In this document: piece after piece, positions 137 to 23,690 of the stretch
Numbering within the stretch: position 1 is the stretch's first letter
Layout of the letters: each line of letters opens with the position of its first letter
The notes under the pieces: generated by a model
Database searches by the model: none
What the model was told of the DNA's origin: nothing
The model's input: the letters and a program-made list of their open reading frames with translations, nothing else
Position numbers and translations under genes: made by a program
Assembly: GCA_964483725.1 (NCBI GenBank)
Contig: CAZACQ010000003.1
Coordinates: forward strand, 1-58,430
From: an uncultured Candidatus Peribacteria bacterium
GTDB taxonomy: Bacteria > Patescibacteriota > Gracilibacteria > Absconditabacterales > Absconditicoccaceae
DNA: 58,430 nucleotides
Direction: 5' to 3'

Positions 137-343
137 TTAAAATCAGACCTGCAAATAAAATAAAGAAGCAAAGGGCATAGGAGTAAGATAAGCAAAAAAT
201 CAAATCAAAATCAAAATTCATCAGATAAAATACCTAAACAAAAAATGAGATTTTAACAAAATAGAAAAAATGTAATTTTTATTTACAATTTTGAATATTT
301 TATAAAGATCTTTTTTGATTTTCCTATTAAGTTTGTTTTTCAT
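137..343 (-). CDS. small basic/hydrophobic membrane protein (hypothetical)
   Basis: Code-25 ORF from ATG 343 to TAA 137 (68 aa, MKNKLNRKIKK...FIGGILILIGFF...) with 4 in-frame TGA. It overlaps the alternative ORF 24..221, so only one of the two can be real. Confidence 0.3.
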
Positions 344-402: not shown

Positions 403-440
403 TAAAAAAAACTCCTCCACTAGTATACTAGCAAAGGAGT
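403..440 (-). terminator. Rho-independent terminator of the GC-rich ORF
   Basis: The minus strand reads CTCC-TTTG-CTAGTATACTAG-T-GGAG followed by T8. The hairpin begins 15 nt after the TGA at 455..457. Confidence 0.6.
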
Positions 441-454
441 AAAATGTATATATC

Positions 455-727
455 TCACAAAGCAAGCGGGATTTTTTTGAATCCCGGCTTAATGCCCGTG
501 ATTTTGTTGATCATCCTGGCTGAGCTATCATTGCCAACCAGAATTCCTCCCGAATCACCACAGAATACTGGCATTCCTGCATTGTGCAGGAAATCACGAG
601 AAGCATTCCTCATCCTCCTCATGGAGAGGAATCTCTGGATGTCTTCAAAGGTGATATCACCTTCGAAGTGGTACACATAGGTGCATGCTTCCTTGCACGC
701 TGCATTGATTTCACGGAGATTATACAT
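455..727 (-). CDS. GC-rich, foreign-looking 90-aa protein of unknown function (standard-code stop TGA at 455; extends to TAG 428 under code 25)
   Basis: ATG at 727 is preceded by AGGAGG 6 nt upstream. There is no in-frame TGA and all 8 Gly use GGN. The ORF is visibly GC-rich compared with its flanks. Sequence: MYNLREINAACKEAC...GDSGGILVGNDSSARMINKITGIKPGFKKIPLAL. No family recognised. Confidence 0.6.
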   Translation of the reverse strand: MYNLREINAACKEACTYVYHFEGDITFEDIQRFLSMRRMRNASRDFLHNAGMPVFCGDSGGILVGNDSSARMINKITGIKPGFKKIPLAL

Positions 728-761
728 GACACACCTCCTGGTGTTTTGTGTAAGGATTTTT

Positions 762-789
762 CTTATAATTATTTTTTTCTAAAAGTCAA
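762..789 (-). promoter_or_regulatory. sigma70-like promoter for 455..727
   Basis: The minus strand has TTGACT (789..784), a 16-nt spacer and TATAAG (767..762). The SD AGGAGG lies at 739..734. Confidence 0.5.
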
Positions 790-15979: not shown

Positions 15980-16447
15980 TTAAAGTTTTGATGCTATATA
16001 GGCCAATCATAAGGCATCAGCTGCATCATCATATTCAGGTAAATTCTCTAATCAATATATTTTCATTATAAAACTTTGTACTAATTCTTTATTAGCTTTT
16101 GAATTTCAAGTTATATATTTTTTCAATTGTATTGGAGTATATTCAAAAATTTGTACATTATTTTTTAAAAACAAACTTATCAAAGCTCATCTTATTCAAT
16201 AAACAAACTCTGCATTTGCTTGATTATATTTAGTAAAGAACAACTTTTCTATTGATAATTTATCTATAGTATATTTTGTAATCATATCTTCAAAAAAATT
16301 TATTATCTTTAATATCCTTTGAAACTGATCTTCTCTATTTGGTGATTTTTGATCAAGTAATAGTATTCATGCATCCTCAATACTTAAATCTTTTTCTATC
16401 AGAGAATATCATAACTTTCTAACTCAGGGATCTATTCACAAAATCAT
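15980..16447 (-). CDS. ruvC: crossover junction endodeoxyribonuclease RuvC
   Basis: ATG 16447 to TAA 15980 (155 aa). Sequence MILGIDPGVRKLGYS ... DDAADALGLAYIA. Confidence 0.85.
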
Positions 16448-18710: not shown

Positions 18711-20213
18711 TTAATTTATTTCTTTTAATGTCTCATCAAGTAAAGATTTTAATGTAGTTTCAATTTCTGAACTTAACTCTTTCTTTTCAAGTATCATATC
18801 TGTCAGTCACTGATAAGTAGAATCCATTTTTTCAAAGACTTTTTTCTCGTAGTCTAGAATTTGATTAATTTCCATACTATCAAAATATCAATTAGTTCAT
18901 GCATAAATAATAACAGCTTGTTTAGCAAAACTCAAAGGCGAATTAGGAGCTTGTTTCAACATTTCTACCAATCTTTCTCATCTTTGAATTTTTTTCTGAG
19001 TTGCTTCATCCAAATCAGATGCAAATTGAGCAAAAGCAGCTAATTCTCTAAATGTAGCTAATTCTAATCTTAATTTTCAAGAAACTTTCTTAACTACTTT
19101 TGTTTGAGCTGAACCTCATACTCTACTTACTGATAATCAAACATTAATAGCTGGTCTTACTCAAGAATTAAACAAGTCAGTTTCTAAGAATATCTGTCAG
19201 TCTGTAATAGAAATAACATTAGTAGGAACATATGCAGAAACATCTCATGCTAAAGTTTCAATAATAGGAAGTGCTGTTAGAGAACCTCATCAGTTTTCTT
19301 CATTTAATCTAGCAGCTCTTTCTAATAATCTAGAATGTAAATAGAAAACATCTCATGGATAAGCTTCTCTACCTGGAGGCCTTCTTAATAGTAATGATAT
19401 CTCTCTATATGCATTAGCATGTTTACTTAAGTCATCATAAACTATCAAAGAATCCTCTCATTTTTCCATAAAATATTCTCATAAAGTACAACCTACATAA
19501 GGAGCAATATATTGTAAAATAGCAGGATCACTTGCTGGTACATTAACTACAACAGTATATTCCAATGCTCAAGAATCCTTAAGTGTTTTAAGTATTCTTT
19601 TTATCTTAGAGTCCTTTTGACCAATAGCAACATAAATACATTTCACTCAAGTTCATTTTTGATTAAGTATAGTATCAATTGCTACAGTTGTTTTACCAGT
19701 TTGCCTATCTCAAATAATTAATTCTCTTTGTCACCTTCCTATTGGAACCATACTATCAATAGCTTTAATTCAAGTTTGCAATGGAGTATCCACTGATTTT
19801 CTTTCCATAACTCAAGCAGCTATTTTTTCCAAAGGAGAATCCTTTTCAGATTTAATTTCTCAAAGTCAATCAATAGGATTTCATAATCAATCAACTACTC
19901 TACCTAAATAGTCTTCTCATACTCAAACACTAAGTACTTTACCAGTTCAAGAAACAACCTGTCATTGTGCTAGTCTTGAATAATCTCATAAAATAAGAAC
20001 TCAAACAGAGCTTTCTCACATATCTAAAACTAATCATTTTGTAGAATCCTCAAATTCAACAATTTCTGAAAACATACAATTATCTAATCATACAACAGTT
20101 GCAACTCAGTCTTTGATTTCTAATATTTCTCATTTTTGTGAAAAAGAATCTGTCAAATCAACAGAATTAACTTTCTCTTCAATCTTTTTAATAATATCTT
20201 GATGAACTGACAT
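18711..20213 (-). CDS. atpA: F0F1 ATP synthase subunit alpha
   Basis: ATG 20213 to TAA 18711. All 501 codons were translated row by row (500 aa). Motifs are [39 protein letters not shown] and ITDGQIFLE. About 45 TGA fall on conserved Gly positions. Confidence 0.95.
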
Positions 20214-20250
20214 AAATAATATTAAGTTAAATTTTAAATATAATTATCAA

Positions 20251-20703
20251 TTAAGATAACAATTTATCAATATCTTTTTCTAAGTTTCTTTTATAATACG
20301 AACCTTCTCACTTTACAAAAATTCATAAGTCTTTTGATTTAAAAGAATCTAATTCACAATCTCAAAAATTTTTATTCAATGAATCTAAAACTTCTTGATA
20401 AGATACATTATCTCATGAAATTAAATCAAAGGACTTCTTATAATTAGTTAGTTCTTTAACCAAAACTATTAATTTTGAAATAGAATCAGTTGTGTATTTT
20501 CAATACTTATCCAAAAGCAAAATAAAAGAATAAATATCTTCATCAACTTCTTTAAGTAAATATGAAAAATTTGATAAAAAAACCTTCTTTCAATATTTTT
20601 TTGAAAGAAACAAAGAGACTTTCAATAAAGAAAGCAGATCATTAGGATTATCAAATCATTCAACTAAAGTTTTAGAAAACTTTTTATTAGATATATATTT
20701 CAT
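20251..20703 (-). CDS. atpH: F0F1 ATP synthase subunit delta (OSCP-like)
   Basis: ATG 20703 to TAA 20251 (150 aa). Its position between atpF and atpA supports the call. The C-terminus LGIFVKGEGSYYKRNLEKDIDKL is delta-like. The sequence is divergent. Confidence 0.65.
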
Positions 20704-20718
20704 TAAACACAATATATA

Positions 20719-21210
20719 TTATTTATTAAATTCTTGAATAAGTTTTTTAATATACTCATCTTGAAAATCTACATTTCTATCAAATAATTTTGTCAAAACA
20801 GTCTTTGTTGTATCTTTAACTGACTGCTCCCAATTATTTTCAAGATCTTTTTTGATTTTTTCTGATTCAATTTGAGCATTATTAACAATATCTTCAGCTT
20901 TTTTATTAGCAGAACTAATAATTTTTTCTTTTTCTTTTTCTGCTAACTGATTTGCTTCTGCTAATATTGACTCTTTATGTTTAGATGCTTGTTCCACTAG
21001 CTCTTCATACTTTTTATTTGCAGATTCTATAATATTTTCATATTCTTCATCTGCATTTTTAAGCTTATTCATAAGTTCCTTTCTTTCATTAATAGCAGAT
21101 ATTATTTTATCTGCAAAAAAATATTTAAAAAGAAAGAAAAAAATTATTAAATTTACAACTTGCAGTGAAACATTAAACAAGATCTGAAGAACATCATTTT
21201 CAAAAGACAT
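20719..21210 (-). CDS. atpF: F0F1 ATP synthase subunit b
   Basis: Track ORF of 163 aa, ending in TAA and free of TGA. An N-terminal TM helix is followed by a long charged helix. It lies between atpE and atpH. Confidence 0.8.
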   Translation of the reverse strand: MSFENDVLQILFNVSLQVVNLIIFFFLFKYFFADKIISAINERKELMNKLKNADEEYENIIESANKKYEELVEQASKHKESILAEANQLAEKEKEKIISSANKKAEDIVNNAQIESEKIKKDLENNWEQSVKDTTKTVLTKLFDRNVDFQDEYIKKLIQEFNK

Positions 21211-21284
21211 AATACTTTATTACAAAATTAAATCGCAGCCTCAATTTAATATAAAGACTGCATATAGATTAATTATTTAAATTA

Positions 21285-21488
21285 TTATAATATCATAATA
21301 GCAACAACTAAAGCAAAAATAGCTGTAGCTTCAGCAAAAGCAATAGATAAAATAGCTGCTGGCAGATACTTCTTTTCCATTTCAGGATTTCTAGAAAGAG
21401 ATTCCAACCAAGCTTTACCAATCATACCAATACCAATACCAGCTCACAATACTCAAACCATAGCAATACCAGCTCACAAAATTTCCAT
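21285..21488 (-). CDS. atpE: F0F1 ATP synthase subunit c
   Basis: ATG 21488 to TAA 21285 (67 aa). Sequence MEILGAGIAMVGVLGAGIGIGMIGKAWLESLSRNPE...AEATAIFALVVAIMIL. Three TGA complete the GxGxGxG motif. Confidence 0.9.
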
Positions 21489-21536
21489 TTCGATTAGAAT
21501 TTAATTATATAAAATATTAATTTTAGACAAAATGAC

Positions 21537-22298
21537 TTAATGAACAGATTCAGCCATTTTGAAATATACACACACAAGCAAAGCAAACACAAATGCCTGC
21601 AAGAAAGACACCAAAAACTCAAAAGCTATTACAAACACAGGAAAACCTACAGGTATAAATCAAATAGCAAGAGTTAACAGCACTACTCATGCAAATATAT
21701 TTCAAAAAAGCCTAAGAGTCAATGAAAACATTTTTGCAAATTCAGATATAATCTCCAAAACTCAAACAAACAATCATATAATAATATCAAAAAACTTAAG
21801 AACAAATGTCTTAAAACTATTAACTTCTTCTACAAGACCAACTCATTTATAAGGCACATACTTCTCAATAAAATGAAGTCAATTTTTTTGAAAACCATAA
21901 AATAGTGATGCCAAAACTCAAACAACAGCTAAAATAGCATTAAAAGCTATATCAGTAGCAACTGGTCTGAACCATTCATAAACAGCTGGAATAGCTAAAG
22001 CAAATAGATCTCCAAATAAACCAAACATATTCACCCAAAGCAAATAGAAAAACACAAACAACACATATCCCATCGCATATCTTGGTATTCACTCTCAAAT
22101 AGAATTGAAAAAAGACAACATTCACTCTACAAAAACTTCCACAATAACTACAAATCAGTTTTTAGGATTTCTTGATTTAATATAGTTATAAATTATTAAG
22201 AATAATATAAAAAATATTGTAGCAACGAAAGCTGTTATAAAAGATTGTGAAAGACTTAAACCAAAAACTTCTATATATTTGGGAGTAATGTCTGGCAT
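21537..22298 (-). CDS. atpB: F0F1 ATP synthase subunit a
   Basis: ATG 22298 to TAA 21537 (253 aa). It contains the essential-Arg helix ...FSLTLRLFGNIFAGVVLL. Confidence 0.9.
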
Positions 22299-22329: not shown

Positions 22330-22484
22330 AAAAAAACCAAGGAGCCGTGGAACTTAGTATCTCTACCCCCCTATAATACAAAGTGGATAGCTCGACCTTG
22401 GCAGGACCAAGATATACCGGCTTCCTGTATTAAAATTGATGTGGAGGAGATAAAGATAAGCTCACCAACCCCTCAGATTTTTAC
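22330..22484 (-). ncRNA. candidate structured ncRNA or leader (class unknown), GC-rich rod-like hairpin ending in U7
   Basis: It lies in the 237-nt dprA-atpB spacer. A ~140-nt core (22476..22337 on the minus strand) is much more GC-rich than its surroundings. It folds into one long irregular hairpin with about 11 G.U pairs, so the fold is specific to the minus strand. A possible TTGAAA-16-TATACA promoter lies at 22518..22491, and a U7 tract at 22336..22330. Confidence 0.5.
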
Positions 22485-22535
22485 ACCTAATGTATAAAGG
22501 TTTTATCAGTTTTTTCAAGAGAAAATTAACAAATC

Positions 22536-23546
22536 CTATTTCACAATATCCCAGTGTCAAGGATAGGACTGGAAAATATATCAATTGATTTCAAGCATAG
22601 ATAATTTATTCAACAAACTTGAATCATCAAAGCCTGTATCAATAACAAGCAAATCTAGAGTATTATTTCAGTTGATTATAGAATTCACAATCAGCTGATC
22701 TTCTTTTGATAAAGAGTCAAAAAAAGAATTTTTAATTGTCTTTTCACTTCAAGTATTCAATTTAAGACTATCCTCAACAAATAAATTTAGATCATAAACC
22801 AAGTTAACTTTTCACTTTCAAATATATTCATTAATTCAAGAACTATAAACAGAATATATAGAATTTGGAGTTGCATATACTGGAACATTTGATTTATTTG
22901 CAAAATCAACCGTAATCAGACTACCTGATTTTTCTCAAGCCTCAGGCAAAAATAAAAAATCAGAAATTCATGCTATAATTCTATTTCTTTGAGGGAAGGT
23001 ATAATGAGTTGGTTTTTGTTTTATTTTAAACTCTGAAAGTATCAATCAGTTATTAGCAATTATATCATTTATGAGTGATCTATCAGAACTATTTAAAAAG
23101 TGATTAAAGCCTCATCATAATACAGATATTGTAGGAATATTATATTTTATAGATAAGTTATGTACTTTTTTATCAACTCAATTAGCAAGTCATGATACAG
23201 TAACTATATCCTTGAATCTGGATAATTTTGAAAACAATTCTTCAAGTACTTTTTCTGCATATGAAGACATTTTTCTAGGTCAAACAATAGATAGCAAATT
23301 TGGACTATTTAAAATACCATAGTTTCAAATATAATAAACAATATAAGGCTTTGATTTAATTTTTTCTAGTCTGTAATGATAGTTTTCTGTTCAATCTAAA
23401 CAAAATCATATTTTGTTTTTTTCAAAATATTCAACAACTTTGGTATATTCATAAGAATCCAAATTATAAGAATTATTTTTTAGCTTGGATATTTTAATAT
23501 CATCATACAAACTATATAAACATGCCTTTTTGTAAGAAAGATCCAT
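22536..23546 (-). CDS. dprA: DNA processing protein DprA/Smf
   Basis: ATG 23546 to TAG 22536 (336 aa). Motifs are IVGPRKMSSYA, VSGLANGVDKKVH, TISVLGGGF, FPQRNRIIAGIS and EAGEKSGSLITVDFA. Confidence 0.85.
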
Positions 23547-23690
23547 TATATTAAAATATATATAAAATAAAACTATAAATAAAGTCTTAATATAAAAAAA
23601 ATATATAAAAATCAATACTAAATTATATTGTAAATAAAAAACAAATTTGTAAAATGAAGATAATTATTTTTTAAAATTAAAAATCAAAAA

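What the first reader, a model, noticed from the sequence alone, without database searches (positions are those of the whole stretch)
22330..22518. GC-rich ~140-nt rod-like, strand-specific RNA structure with U7 tail in the dprA-atpB spacer
The 237-nt spacer upstream of atpB contains the only other GC-rich patch in the window, and no ORF. On the minus strand (nt 1 = 22476, nt 140 = 22337) almost every base can pair into one long irregular hairpin. Nt 1-11 CUGAGGGGUUG pair with 130-140 CGGCUCCUUGG. Nt 15-32 AGCUUAUCUUUAUCUCCU pair with 106-126 GGGGGGUAGAGAU(ACU)AAGUU. Nt 45-51 UAAUACA pair with 97-103 UGUAUUA. Nt 52-60 GGAAGCCGG pair with 82-92 UCG(A)GCU(A)UCC. The apical hairpin is 66-80, CUUGG-UCCUG-CCAAG. 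About 11 of the pairs are G.U, which would be C.A mismatches on the other strand. The fold is therefore RNA-level and minus-strand specific, not a DNA palindrome or MITE. A TTGAAA-16-TATACA promoter-like pair lies just upstream (22518..22491) and a U7 tract follows the closing helix (22336..22330), 32 nt before the atpB ATG. It could be an independent small RNA or a leader/attenuator of the atp operon.
Basis: seen in the sequence. Interest (0 to 1): 0.7.

Follow-up and report, generated by a model that had tools for sequence, protein, structure and literature searches.

The report
6S RNA gene upstream of atpB
The GC-rich hairpin between dprA and atpB is this bacterium's 6S RNA, the widespread small RNA that mimics an open promoter to hold RNA polymerase in check; it is an ordinary kind of gene, but found here in a poorly studied, ultrasmall SR1/Absconditabacteria genome and set unusually close to the ATP synthase operon.

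Summary
The minus strand 22482..22330 folds into one long irregular hairpin (-56.4 kcal/mol, z = -4.9), while the plus strand does not (z = +0.7). Rfam's only gathering-level hit in the 58-kb window is 6S/SsrS RNA at exactly this place (51.1 bits, cut-off 46.4). The genome uses code 25 (TGA = Gly) and is nearest to Ca. Absconditicoccus praedator (SR1/Absconditabacteria, CPR). I found eight further clear copies in related metagenomic contigs and two probable divergent ones. All 11 have a TTGAAA-N16-TATAxx promoter and a U-tract. Across nine copies, 88.8% of pair cells hold (41-51% when slid) and 24 of 46 pairs show compensatory changes. Rfam's 6S model also hits three relatives. It is not a dedicated atp leader: in some relatives a second promoter, a convergent gene or an unrelated gene separates it from atpB. 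In the window only 31 nt separate the U-tract from the atpB ATG, so co-transcription is possible. Verdict: a new member of a known kind, of modest interest.

The parts
22491..22518 (-). Promoter of the RNA gene: -35 TTGAAA (22518..22513), 16-nt spacer, -10 TATACA (22496..22491). The predicted start is near G22484.
   Evidence: Read from the sequence. The same TTGAAA/TTGTAA/TTGATT-N16-TAxAxx arrangement occurs in all 11 homologous loci and ends 8-15 nt before the conserved CUAAGG. The consensus scan alone is not significant. The start site is inferred.
22330..22484 (-). 6S RNA (ssrS-like) gene, about 153-155 nt. It is a compact 6S with a shortened apical arm.
   Evidence: Rfam RF00013 scores 51.1 bits against a gathering score of 46.4, E = 2.6e-7 over the whole window, with full model coverage 1-187. 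Fold z = -4.87. Lineage models R1 and R2 score 169.6 and 148 bits.
22466..22476 (-). Closing stem, 5' strand (CUGAGGGGUUG). It pairs with 22337..22347. The 5' A-run 22478..22482 can also pair with the first U's of the tail.
   Evidence: Helix 1 is 89.9% paired over 9 sequences. The leader:tail pairing changes from AAA:UUU to CGA:UCG in L085/L101.
22445..22463 (-). 5' strand of the internal (P2/'downstream'-like) helix, GAGCUUAUCUUUAUCUCCU. It pairs with 22350..22371 and is the presumed template that a product RNA would copy.
   Evidence: Helices 2 and 3 have 11 of 19 pairs with double-sided changes. The motif YAUCUYCYYC is conserved. The template role is inferred from the known 6S mechanism (PMC8876501).
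22426..22444 (-). 5' central bubble, CCACAUCAAUUUUAAUACA. Its first 8 nt (CNCAUCR) are conserved although unpaired, and are the presumed product-RNA start region.
   Evidence: Rfam aligns this stretch to the unpaired 5' bubble of the 6S model. The majority fraction is 0.83 for the first 8 nt versus 0.66 for the whole bubble. Pairing of the last 7 nt with 22374..22380 is not conserved.
22385..22425 (-). Upper stem (GGAAGCCG / CG-A-GCU-A-UCC) and apical hairpin (AUCUUGGU-CCU-GCCAAGGU).
   Evidence: Helices 4 and 5 are 97% paired, and 12 of 16 pairs have compensatory changes. The apical stem sequence differs entirely between lineages yet still pairs.
22372..22384 (-). 3' central bubble, ACUUUGUAUUAUA.
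   Evidence: Rfam aligns it to the unpaired 3' bubble of the 6S model. Together with the adjacent UCC and the G-run it can form an alternative local hairpin.
22350..22371 (-). 3' purine-rich strand of the internal helix (GGGGGGUAGAGAUA-CUA-AGUUC).
22330..22347 (-). Closing stem, 3' strand (CGGCUCCUUGG, 22347..22337), followed by the U7 tract (22336..22330), which is the presumed intrinsic terminator.
   Evidence: A U-run follows the closing stem in all 11 copies. In L085/L101 it persists as a separate U5 after the extra UCG pairs. The tool's terminator scan does not call it, because the 'loop' is the whole rod.
21537..22298 (-). atpB (ATP synthase subunit a), first gene of atpB-E-F-H-A. Its ATG lies 31 nt after the U-tract. 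It is a neighbour and possibly co-transcribed, but is not part of the RNA.
   Evidence: Pfam PF00119, E = 3.5e-29.
22536..23615 (-). dprA, the upstream neighbour in this genome only.
   Evidence: Pfam PF02481, E = 5.6e-56. The upstream gene differs in every relative.

Best explanation
This is the 6S RNA (SsrS) of an Absconditabacteria/SR1 bacterium. It is transcribed from its own sigma-70-type promoter (TTGAAA-16-TATACA) and ends at the U-tract that follows the closing stem. The RNA, about 155 nt, folds into a rod with a closing stem, an internal helix, a central internal loop, and an upper/apical stem. By analogy with characterised 6S RNAs, the loop and its flanking helices mimic an open promoter and occupy the active site of the housekeeping RNA polymerase holoenzyme, which damps transcription when nucleotides are scarce. 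When NTPs return, the polymerase would start a short product RNA in the conserved CNCAUC part of the 5' loop strand. It would copy the pyrimidine-rich 5' strand of the internal helix, giving a product such as 5'-(G)AUGUGGAGGAGAUAAAG. The freed G-rich 3' strand could then pair with the UCC(AC) segment across the 3' loop, refolding the RNA and releasing the polymerase. Shown here: sequence and structure membership of the 6S family, conservation and covariation of the fold, a conserved promoter and U-tract, and independence from atpB in some lineages. Inferred: polymerase binding, product-RNA synthesis, the start site and the refolding.
For: RF00013 is the only Rfam family at gathering level in the window. 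It matches exactly at 22330..22482(-), 51.1 bits against 46.4, E = 2.6e-7, with the full model aligned and both bubble strands aligned to unpaired model positions. The same model hits homologs full-length: L083 46.4 bits (E = 4e-6), L101 44.6 (E = 1e-5), L099 31.9 (E = 0.011), with no competing family. Folding is strand-specific. Eight further clear copies and two probable divergent ones come from relatives with 47-65% AtpB identity. Covariation over nine copies: 88.8% of cells paired versus 41-51% slid; 24 pairs with double-sided changes versus 7-13 slid; 0 of 500 shuffles reach the observed values. The 5' bubble start is conserved although unpaired. The cross-bubble pairing is not conserved. 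Promoter and U-tract are conserved in 11 of 11 copies. Canonical 6S features and the release mechanism are taken from PMC8414754 and PMC8876501.
Against: There are no expression, polymerase-binding or product-RNA data. Only the window and L083 reach Rfam's gathering score; five clear homologs and both divergent ones were not reported by Rfam. The RNA is short for a 6S (about 155 nt versus a 187-position model, with 32 apical positions deleted). In the window the bubble can be partly closed by 7 A-U-rich pairs, leaving it asymmetric at 12 nt against 2+4 nt. The main covariation count was made on an alignment fitted to the model's structure. On the structure-naive MAFFT alignment, RNAalifold recovers only the closing stem and different local helices.
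Confidence: 0.85

Rival explanations
1. It is a dual-purpose unit. The RNA is a true 6S RNA, but in the window's sub-lineage it also forms the 5' part of the atp operon transcript. atpB-E-F-H-A would be expressed by read-through of the leaky closing-stem/U7 terminator, and 6S would be either terminated or processed out of the longer transcript. This would tie ATP synthase expression to the 6S promoter.
For: Only 31, 34 and 27 nt separate the U-tract from the atpB ATG in the window, L082 and L083, which is too short for a separate promoter. A possible overlapping TTGGTT-16-TATAGA in the window has no equivalent at workable spacing in L083 (sequence). Both genes are on the same strand in 9 of 11 loci, and the RNA stays within 3 kb of atpB in all 11. 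There is a precedent: E. coli ssrS is the first gene of a dual-function transcription unit with ygfA (Hsu et al. 1985, cited as ref. 14 in PMC8414754; from my own knowledge of that paper).
Against: A long helix followed by U7 should terminate a good share of transcripts. Other lineages have room for, or visibly contain, a separate atpB promoter: L086/L103 have a second cTTGAAA-N16-TATATA, and the gaps are 54-154 nt. There are no transcript data.
Confidence: 0.3
2. It is a cis-acting leader or attenuator of the atp operon and not a trans-acting RNA. On this view the rod with its U-tract is a regulated terminator whose only role is to set atp expression.
For: It lies immediately upstream of atpB on the same strand in seven clear copies, and a U-tract follows the helix.
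Against: In L106 the RNA is followed by a bidirectional terminator and a convergent gene. In L001 an unrelated 391-aa ORF follows. In L086/L103 atpB has its own promoter after the RNA's terminator. No alternative antiterminator pairing competes with the closing stem. The apical and upper helices covary strongly, which a simple terminator would not require. It matches the 6S model.
Confidence: 0.05
3. It is a lineage-specific structured small RNA with some other function, for example a protein sponge or a base-pairing regulator. On this view it resembles 6S only because both are rods with an internal loop.
For: Most homologs score below Rfam's cut-off. The 6S model is mostly structural and carries little sequence information. 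The bubble is small and asymmetric in the window.
Against: There are four independent full-length hits to RF00013, with E-values from 2.6e-7 to 0.011, and no hit to any other family. The bubble strands align with the model's bubble. The unpaired 5'-bubble motif is conserved and lies next to a pyrimidine-rich template-like strand. No other 6S candidate was seen in the window.
Confidence: 0.08
4. It is a DNA-level element (palindrome or MITE) or a chance GC-rich patch.
For: It is a GC-rich inverted repeat in an AT-rich genome.
Against: The plus strand folds no better than shuffles (z = +0.70), while the minus strand gives z = -4.87. Twelve G.U pairs would be A.C mismatches on the other strand. 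There is a single copy in the window. The position is conserved, with compensatory changes.
Confidence: 0.01

Closest known systems
6S / SsrS RNA (Rfam RF00013), e.g. E. coli 6S and B. subtilis 6S-1
   Same: Both are single rods with a closing stem, an internal (P2/downstream) helix, a central bubble with an unpaired and conserved 5' strand, and an apical stem. This RNA scores above the family's curated threshold. It has its own sigma-70-type promoter. It has the potential to form a 3'-bubble hairpin once the internal helix is opened, as in the E. coli-type release mechanism (PMC8876501).
   Different: It is about 30 nt shorter, with a truncated apical arm. In the window the bubble is smaller and more asymmetric. 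The closing stem is followed directly by the terminator U-tract. The genomic context is the atp operon rather than ygfA (Proteobacteria) or rarA/uspA (Lactobacillales) (PMC9130861, PMC8414754). The host is a code-25 SR1 bacterium. No paper in the searchable library links 6S RNA with any of the CPR-related terms I searched.
E. coli ssrS-ygfA dual-function transcription unit
   Same: The 6S gene lies directly upstream of, and on the same strand as, a protein-coding gene, which makes co-transcription plausible.
   Different: Here the downstream genes encode ATP synthase, and a U-tract terminator sits between them. Co-transcription has not been shown.
Ms1 RNA of Actinobacteria
   Same: It is a rod-like RNA with an internal loop that binds RNA polymerase (PMC9130861).
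   Different: Ms1 is about 300 nt, binds the core enzyme without sigma, and is confined to Actinobacteria. No Rfam hit other than 6S was obtained here.

Membership tests
6S / SsrS RNA (RF00013) | Scores at or above the curated gathering threshold of the family covariance model over the full model length | tested here: met
   The window scores 51.1 bits against 46.4, model positions 1-187. Homologs: L083 46.4, L101 44.6, L099 31.9. Other homologs were not reported.
6S / SsrS RNA (RF00013) | RNA of about 150-200 nt forming one extended hairpin, with an outer closing stem and an apical stem capped by a terminal loop (PMC8414754) | tested here: met
   MFE rods are found in 11 of 11 copies. 46 consensus pairs are 88.8% kept, and 24 have compensatory changes.
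6S / SsrS RNA (RF00013) | Large central bubble or 5' central bulge between the two arms, resembling an open promoter | tested here: met
   The 5' strand is 15-19 nt and the 3' strand 11-13 nt between conserved helices, and both align to the model's bubble. Cross-bubble pairing is not conserved. Caveat: in the window 7 weak pairs can narrow it to 12 nt against 2+4 nt.
6S / SsrS RNA (RF00013) | The 5' bubble strand harbours the start site for product RNA (pRNA) synthesis by RNA polymerase | not testable with these tools
   The evidence is indirect only: the unpaired CNCAUCR motif is conserved (0.83 majority) and lies next to a conserved pyrimidine-rich strand.
6S / SsrS RNA (RF00013) | Binds the housekeeping sigma (sigma-70/sigma-A) RNA polymerase holoenzyme | not testable with these tools
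   This needs a pull-down or gel shift.
6S / SsrS RNA (RF00013) | Opening of the internal helix by pRNA allows a refolding (3'-bubble hairpin or bubble-collapse helix) that releases the polymerase (PMC8876501) | tested here: inconclusive
   With the 5' strand blocked, 3'-side hairpins form in L086/L103 (9 bp), L001/L106 (5 bp) and the window. The alternative hairpins are 91% paired versus 39-76% slid, but most double changes come from one lineage.
6S / SsrS RNA (RF00013) | Independent, strongly expressed gene with its own promoter | tested here: inconclusive
   The promoter and U-tract motifs are conserved in 11 of 11 copies. Expression itself was not measured.
cis-regulatory leader / attenuator of the atp operon | Always part of the 5' untranslated region of the regulated operon | tested here: not met
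   L106 has a terminator and a convergent gene between the RNA and atpB. L001 has two genes between them. L086/L103 have a separate atpB promoter after the RNA's terminator.
cis-regulatory leader / attenuator of the atp operon | Mutually exclusive terminator and antiterminator foldings | tested here: not met
   The U-tract is preceded only by the closing stem of the whole rod. The alternative hairpins found do not involve the closing stem.
MITE / DNA palindrome | Symmetric inverted repeat that folds equally on both strands and occurs in multiple copies | tested here: not met
   Fold z is -4.87 on the minus strand and +0.70 on the plus strand. There is a single copy in the window.

The most novel reading that the evidence does not exclude
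In this SR1 sub-lineage the 6S RNA gene and the ATP synthase operon form one transcription unit. With only 27-34 nt and no workable promoter between the 6S U-tract and the atpB start codon, atp expression would depend on read-through from the 6S promoter. The closing stem plus U-tract would then act as a leaky, possibly NTP-sensitive gate. This would couple synthesis of the polymerase-sequestering RNA directly to synthesis of the ATP-making machine in a minimal, host-dependent cell.
Probability: 0.3. Interest if true: 0.5.

Novelty: new member of a known kind. Interest (0 to 1): 0.3.

Why it matters
6S RNA is regarded as nearly universal in bacteria. However, I found no paper in the searchable library that mentions it together with the CPR/Patescibacteria terms I searched. 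Most copies in this clade fall below Rfam's threshold, so they are likely to be missed by threshold-based annotation. The finding shows that an ultrasmall SR1 bacterium with a recoded genome (TGA = Gly) keeps this global brake on RNA polymerase. The finding also flags an unusual and recurrent linkage to the ATP synthase operon that could be tested in the cultivated relatives Absconditicoccus and Vampirococcus. It does not change what is known about how 6S RNA works.

Tried and rejected
(1) Code 4 (Mollicutes) was my first guess from the short table-11 ORFs. I rejected it because TGA falls at conserved glycines in RuvC and AtpA.

(2) The genome-collection scan with the AtpB alignment returned mostly distant Patescibacteria, because the tblastn confirmation uses table 11. 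Only L001 was a close relative.

(3) The Rfam gathering scan of relatives' loci found no 6S. The homologs were then found by eye and with lineage-specific models.

(4) The metagenome pattern scan gave 10 matches, of which only one (L099) was a true copy.

(5) RNAalifold on MAFFT alignments of 9 or 11 sequences lost the interior helices, because indels in the apical arm misalign them. I therefore used a model-fitted alignment and flagged its bias.

(6) R2 found no copy in about 80 atpB loci of other Patescibacteria and other phyla. This says nothing about 6S elsewhere in those genomes. A 72-nt hit in L058 (19.7-21.5 bits) was not checked.

(7) L086/L103 could not be confirmed statistically as homologs (R2 15.6 bits, E = 0.63; no Rfam hit). 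I keep them as probable, on the basis of position, promoter, the CUAAG...CUUGG ends and the architecture.

(8) The pattern TTGAAA-N15-17-TAWAWW is not enriched in the window (5 matches against 8 expected), so it gives no information on promoter class.

(9) Source names for the AtpB clusters were empty. Taxonomy came from AtpA instead.

(10) The survey by Wehner et al. 2014 is not held in the library.

(11) The other GC-rich patch (411-770) is not a second RNA of this kind.

Full report
**Observation.** The region is as described. dprA (Pfam PF02481, E = 5.6e-56) ends with TAG at 22536. atpB (PF00119, E = 3.5e-29) starts at 22298. The 237-nt spacer contains no ATG-initiated ORF. The minus strand 22482..22330 folds into one long irregular hairpin of -56.4 kcal/mol (z = -4.87; 0 of 200 dinucleotide shuffles as good). 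The plus strand gives -26.7 kcal/mol (z = +0.70). The MFE has 58 pairs, of which 12 are G.U. The TTGAAA-16-TATACA pair (22518..22491) and the U7 tract (22336..22330) are present. It is one of only two patches in the window with GC of at least 0.40, against a background of 0.25.

**Organism.** Table-11 ORFs cover only 10% of the window. Reading TGA as sense restores full coding density. TGA falls at conserved glycines (RuvC 'ILGIDPGVRKLGY'; AtpA 'KDGVATVVGLD'), so the code is 25, not 4. The nearest named AtpA is that of Candidatus Absconditicoccus praedator (78% identity), followed by other Absconditabacteria/SR1 MAGs. The window is therefore from an SR1/Absconditabacterales genome of the CPR (Patescibacteria).

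**What it is.** A scan of the whole window against Rfam 15 at gathering thresholds gives exactly one hit. It is RF00013, 6S/SsrS RNA, at 22330..22482(-), with 51.1 bits against a cut-off of 46.4 and E = 2.6e-7, covering model positions 1-187. The alignment places the closing stem, the internal helix, both strands of the central bubble (ACAUCAAUUUUAAUAC and ACUUUGUAUUAUA) and the upper stem on the matching model elements. It deletes 32 positions of the apical arm.

**Homologs.** AtpB relatives form a distinct clade at 44-65% identity. Fetching their contigs revealed homologous RNAs:
- L082 and L083, seen by eye.
- L085, L100, L101, L001 and L106, found with the lineage covariance model R1 at 25.7-99 bits.
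- L099, found by a metagenome pattern scan.
- L086 and L103, a divergent type recognised by position, promoter, terminal sequences and architecture, but not statistically (R2 15.6 bits, E = 0.63).

Rfam's general 6S model, run below threshold, hits three homologs full-length with no competing family: L083 46.4 bits (E = 4e-6), L101 44.6 (E = 1e-5) and L099 31.9 (E = 0.011). The 6S assignment therefore does not rest on one borderline hit.

**Structure and covariation.** All 11 sequences fold independently into a single rod (-38 to -72 kcal/mol). The sense strand is clearly more stable in the AT-rich members. On the model-fitted alignment of nine copies (A6):
- 88.8% of pair cells are standard pairs, versus 41-51% when the 3' partners are slid by 1-3 columns.
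- 24 of 46 pairs carry double-sided changes, versus 7-13 when slid.
- 54 cells carry double-sided changes, versus 8-18 when slid.
- 0 of 500 column shuffles reach the observed values.
- The upper and apical helices are 97% paired, with 12 of 16 pairs covarying. The apical stem is a different sequence in each lineage.

This alignment is fitted to the structure, which inflates the percentage paired. The counts of compensatory pairs and the slid controls are less affected. With three sequences aligned by MAFFT alone, RNAalifold already gave the same 49-pair rod with 9 compensatory pairs. With 9 or 11 sequences, MAFFT misaligns the indel-rich apical arm and RNAalifold keeps only the closing stem.

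**The central loop.** The equivalent pairing in the relatives ranges from -4.3 to +0.1 kcal/mol, and 5-97% of shuffles do as well. It is absent in L001/L106. The conserved feature is therefore an internal loop, not a continuous rod. The first 8 nt of its 5' strand (consensus CNCAUCR) are conserved although unpaired (majority fraction 0.83, versus 0.66 for the whole 5' strand and 0.62 for the 3' strand). They adjoin a conserved pyrimidine-rich strand, YAUCUYCYYC. In characterised 6S RNAs this is where product-RNA synthesis starts and which strand it copies (PMC8414754, PMC8876501).

**Refolding potential.** I blocked the 5' strand to mimic a product-RNA hybrid. New hairpins then form between the 3' loop strand and the freed purine-rich strand: 9 bp in L086/L103, 5 bp in L001/L106, and a composite hairpin in the window. 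Independently, RNAalifold on the structure-naive alignment proposed two local hairpins: CUCC:GGAG across the 5' loop and YCCAC:GGGGG across the 3' loop. These are 91% paired versus 39-76% when slid, with 4 double-sided changes, most of them from one lineage. This resembles the E. coli-type release hairpin formed by the 3' bubble and the 3' strand of the downstream helix (PMC8876501). It is suggestive only.

**Transcription signals and context.**
- All 11 copies have TTGAAA (TTGTAA or TTGATT in the outliers), exactly 16 nt, then TAxAxx. The -10 box ends 8-15 nt before the conserved CUAAGG.
- All have a U-run straight after the closing stem.
- In most copies a 5' A-run pairs with the first U's. 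In L085/L101 this pairing is replaced by CGA:UCG and a separate U5 follows. The ends therefore belong to the helix, and the U-run is kept for its own sake, most simply as a terminator.
- The upstream gene differs in every lineage: dprA, DUF2238, trigger factor, a sulfate-transporter-like gene and others. atpB lies downstream in 9 of 11 loci.

**Not a dedicated atp leader.** In L086 and L103 a second cTTGAAA-N16-TATATA promoter lies between the RNA's terminator and atpB. In L106 the RNA is followed by a bidirectional terminator and a convergent gene. In L001 an unrelated 391-aa ORF follows it. AtpB relatives with spacers of only 60-76 nt (L088, L102, L105) have no copy near atpB. In the window, L082 and L083, however, only 31, 34 and 27 nt separate the U-tract from the atpB ATG. 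A possible overlapping promoter in the window (TTGGTT-16-TATAGA) has no workable equivalent in L083. Read-through co-transcription of 6S and atpBEFHA is therefore a live possibility, which I put at about 0.3. The precedent is the E. coli ssrS-ygfA unit.

**Comparison with the known.** The RNA meets the testable defining features of 6S RNA: model score, size and rod shape, a central bubble with a conserved 5' strand, and an independent promoter. Polymerase binding and product-RNA synthesis cannot be tested here. It differs from textbook 6S RNAs in four ways: it is about 30 nt shorter, its bubble is smaller and more asymmetric in this genome, its terminator U-tract abuts the closing stem, and its genomic partner is the atp operon rather than ygfA or rarA/uspA (PMC9130861, PMC8414754).

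**Literature.** Full-text searches found no paper that mentions 6S RNA together with 'Candidate Phyla Radiation'. None of the top-ranked papers listed for Patescibacteria, Gracilibacteria, Absconditabacteria, SR1, Saccharibacteria, TM7, Absconditicoccus or Vampirococcus mentioned 6S RNA. The main survey (Wehner et al. 2014) is not held in the library. I cannot exclude that Rfam full alignments or automated RefSeq annotation already list such hits.

**Verdict.** This is a real, conserved, strand-specific RNA gene: the 6S RNA of an SR1 bacterium. The 'independent small RNA' option is right and 'atp attenuator' is not. Interest is modest at 0.3. The points worth following are the recurrent and sometimes extremely tight linkage to the ATP synthase operon, and the fact that most copies in this clade escape Rfam's threshold.

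Noticed in passing
whole window (e.g. ruvC 15980..16447 -, atpA 18711..20213 -): The genome uses genetic code 25 (TGA = Gly). Table-11 ORFs cover only 10% of the window. The nearest named relative by AtpA is Ca. Absconditicoccus praedator (78% identity).
   Followed up: yes
window 405..770 (minus strand; ORF 428..727): This is the only other patch with GC of at least 0.40 (up to 0.49, against 0.25 for the genome). It is not an Rfam RNA. It reads as AGGAGG-N6-ATG, a 99-codon ORF and a strong hairpin-U8 terminator. It has no Pfam or PHROG match and may be a foreign gene. Fold z is -7.1 on the minus strand.
   Followed up: partly
window 18711..22298 (minus strand): The atp operon here is only atpB-E-F-H-A. 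The next genes lie on the other strand, and atpG/D/C are not adjacent. In relatives L088 and L105 even atpA is missing after atpH, with guanylate kinase or a Mur ligase following instead.
   Followed up: no
L086 2917..2945 and L103 4256..4285: A second copy of the same promoter type (cTTGAAA-N16-TATATA) lies between the RNA's terminator and atpB. The RNA and atpB therefore carry near-identical promoters in tandem.
   Followed up: partly
L106 about 300..330: A bidirectional terminator, AAAAAAGAGGCUAAUUGCCUCUUUUUUU, lies directly after the RNA's own U-tract and is shared with a convergent gene. L001/L106 AtpB translates under table 11, so this sister lineage (labelled 'Peribacteria') may use the standard code.
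   Followed up: no
window 22533..22560 (minus strand): The best promoter-like match in the region (TTGACA-16-TAGGAT, 10 of 12) lies inside the 3' end of dprA, 40 nt upstream of the conserved RNA promoter. It is probably chance, since 6 sites were found against 6.1 expected.
   Followed up: no
whole window: No tRNA or any other Rfam family reaches gathering score anywhere in the 58 kb apart from the 6S hit.
   Followed up: no
L058 3876..3947: A 72-nt match to the lineage models (19.7-21.5 bits, E = 0.01-0.05) occurs in a Uhrbacteria contig. It spans the model ends only and is probably a GC-rich terminator hairpin.
   Followed up: no
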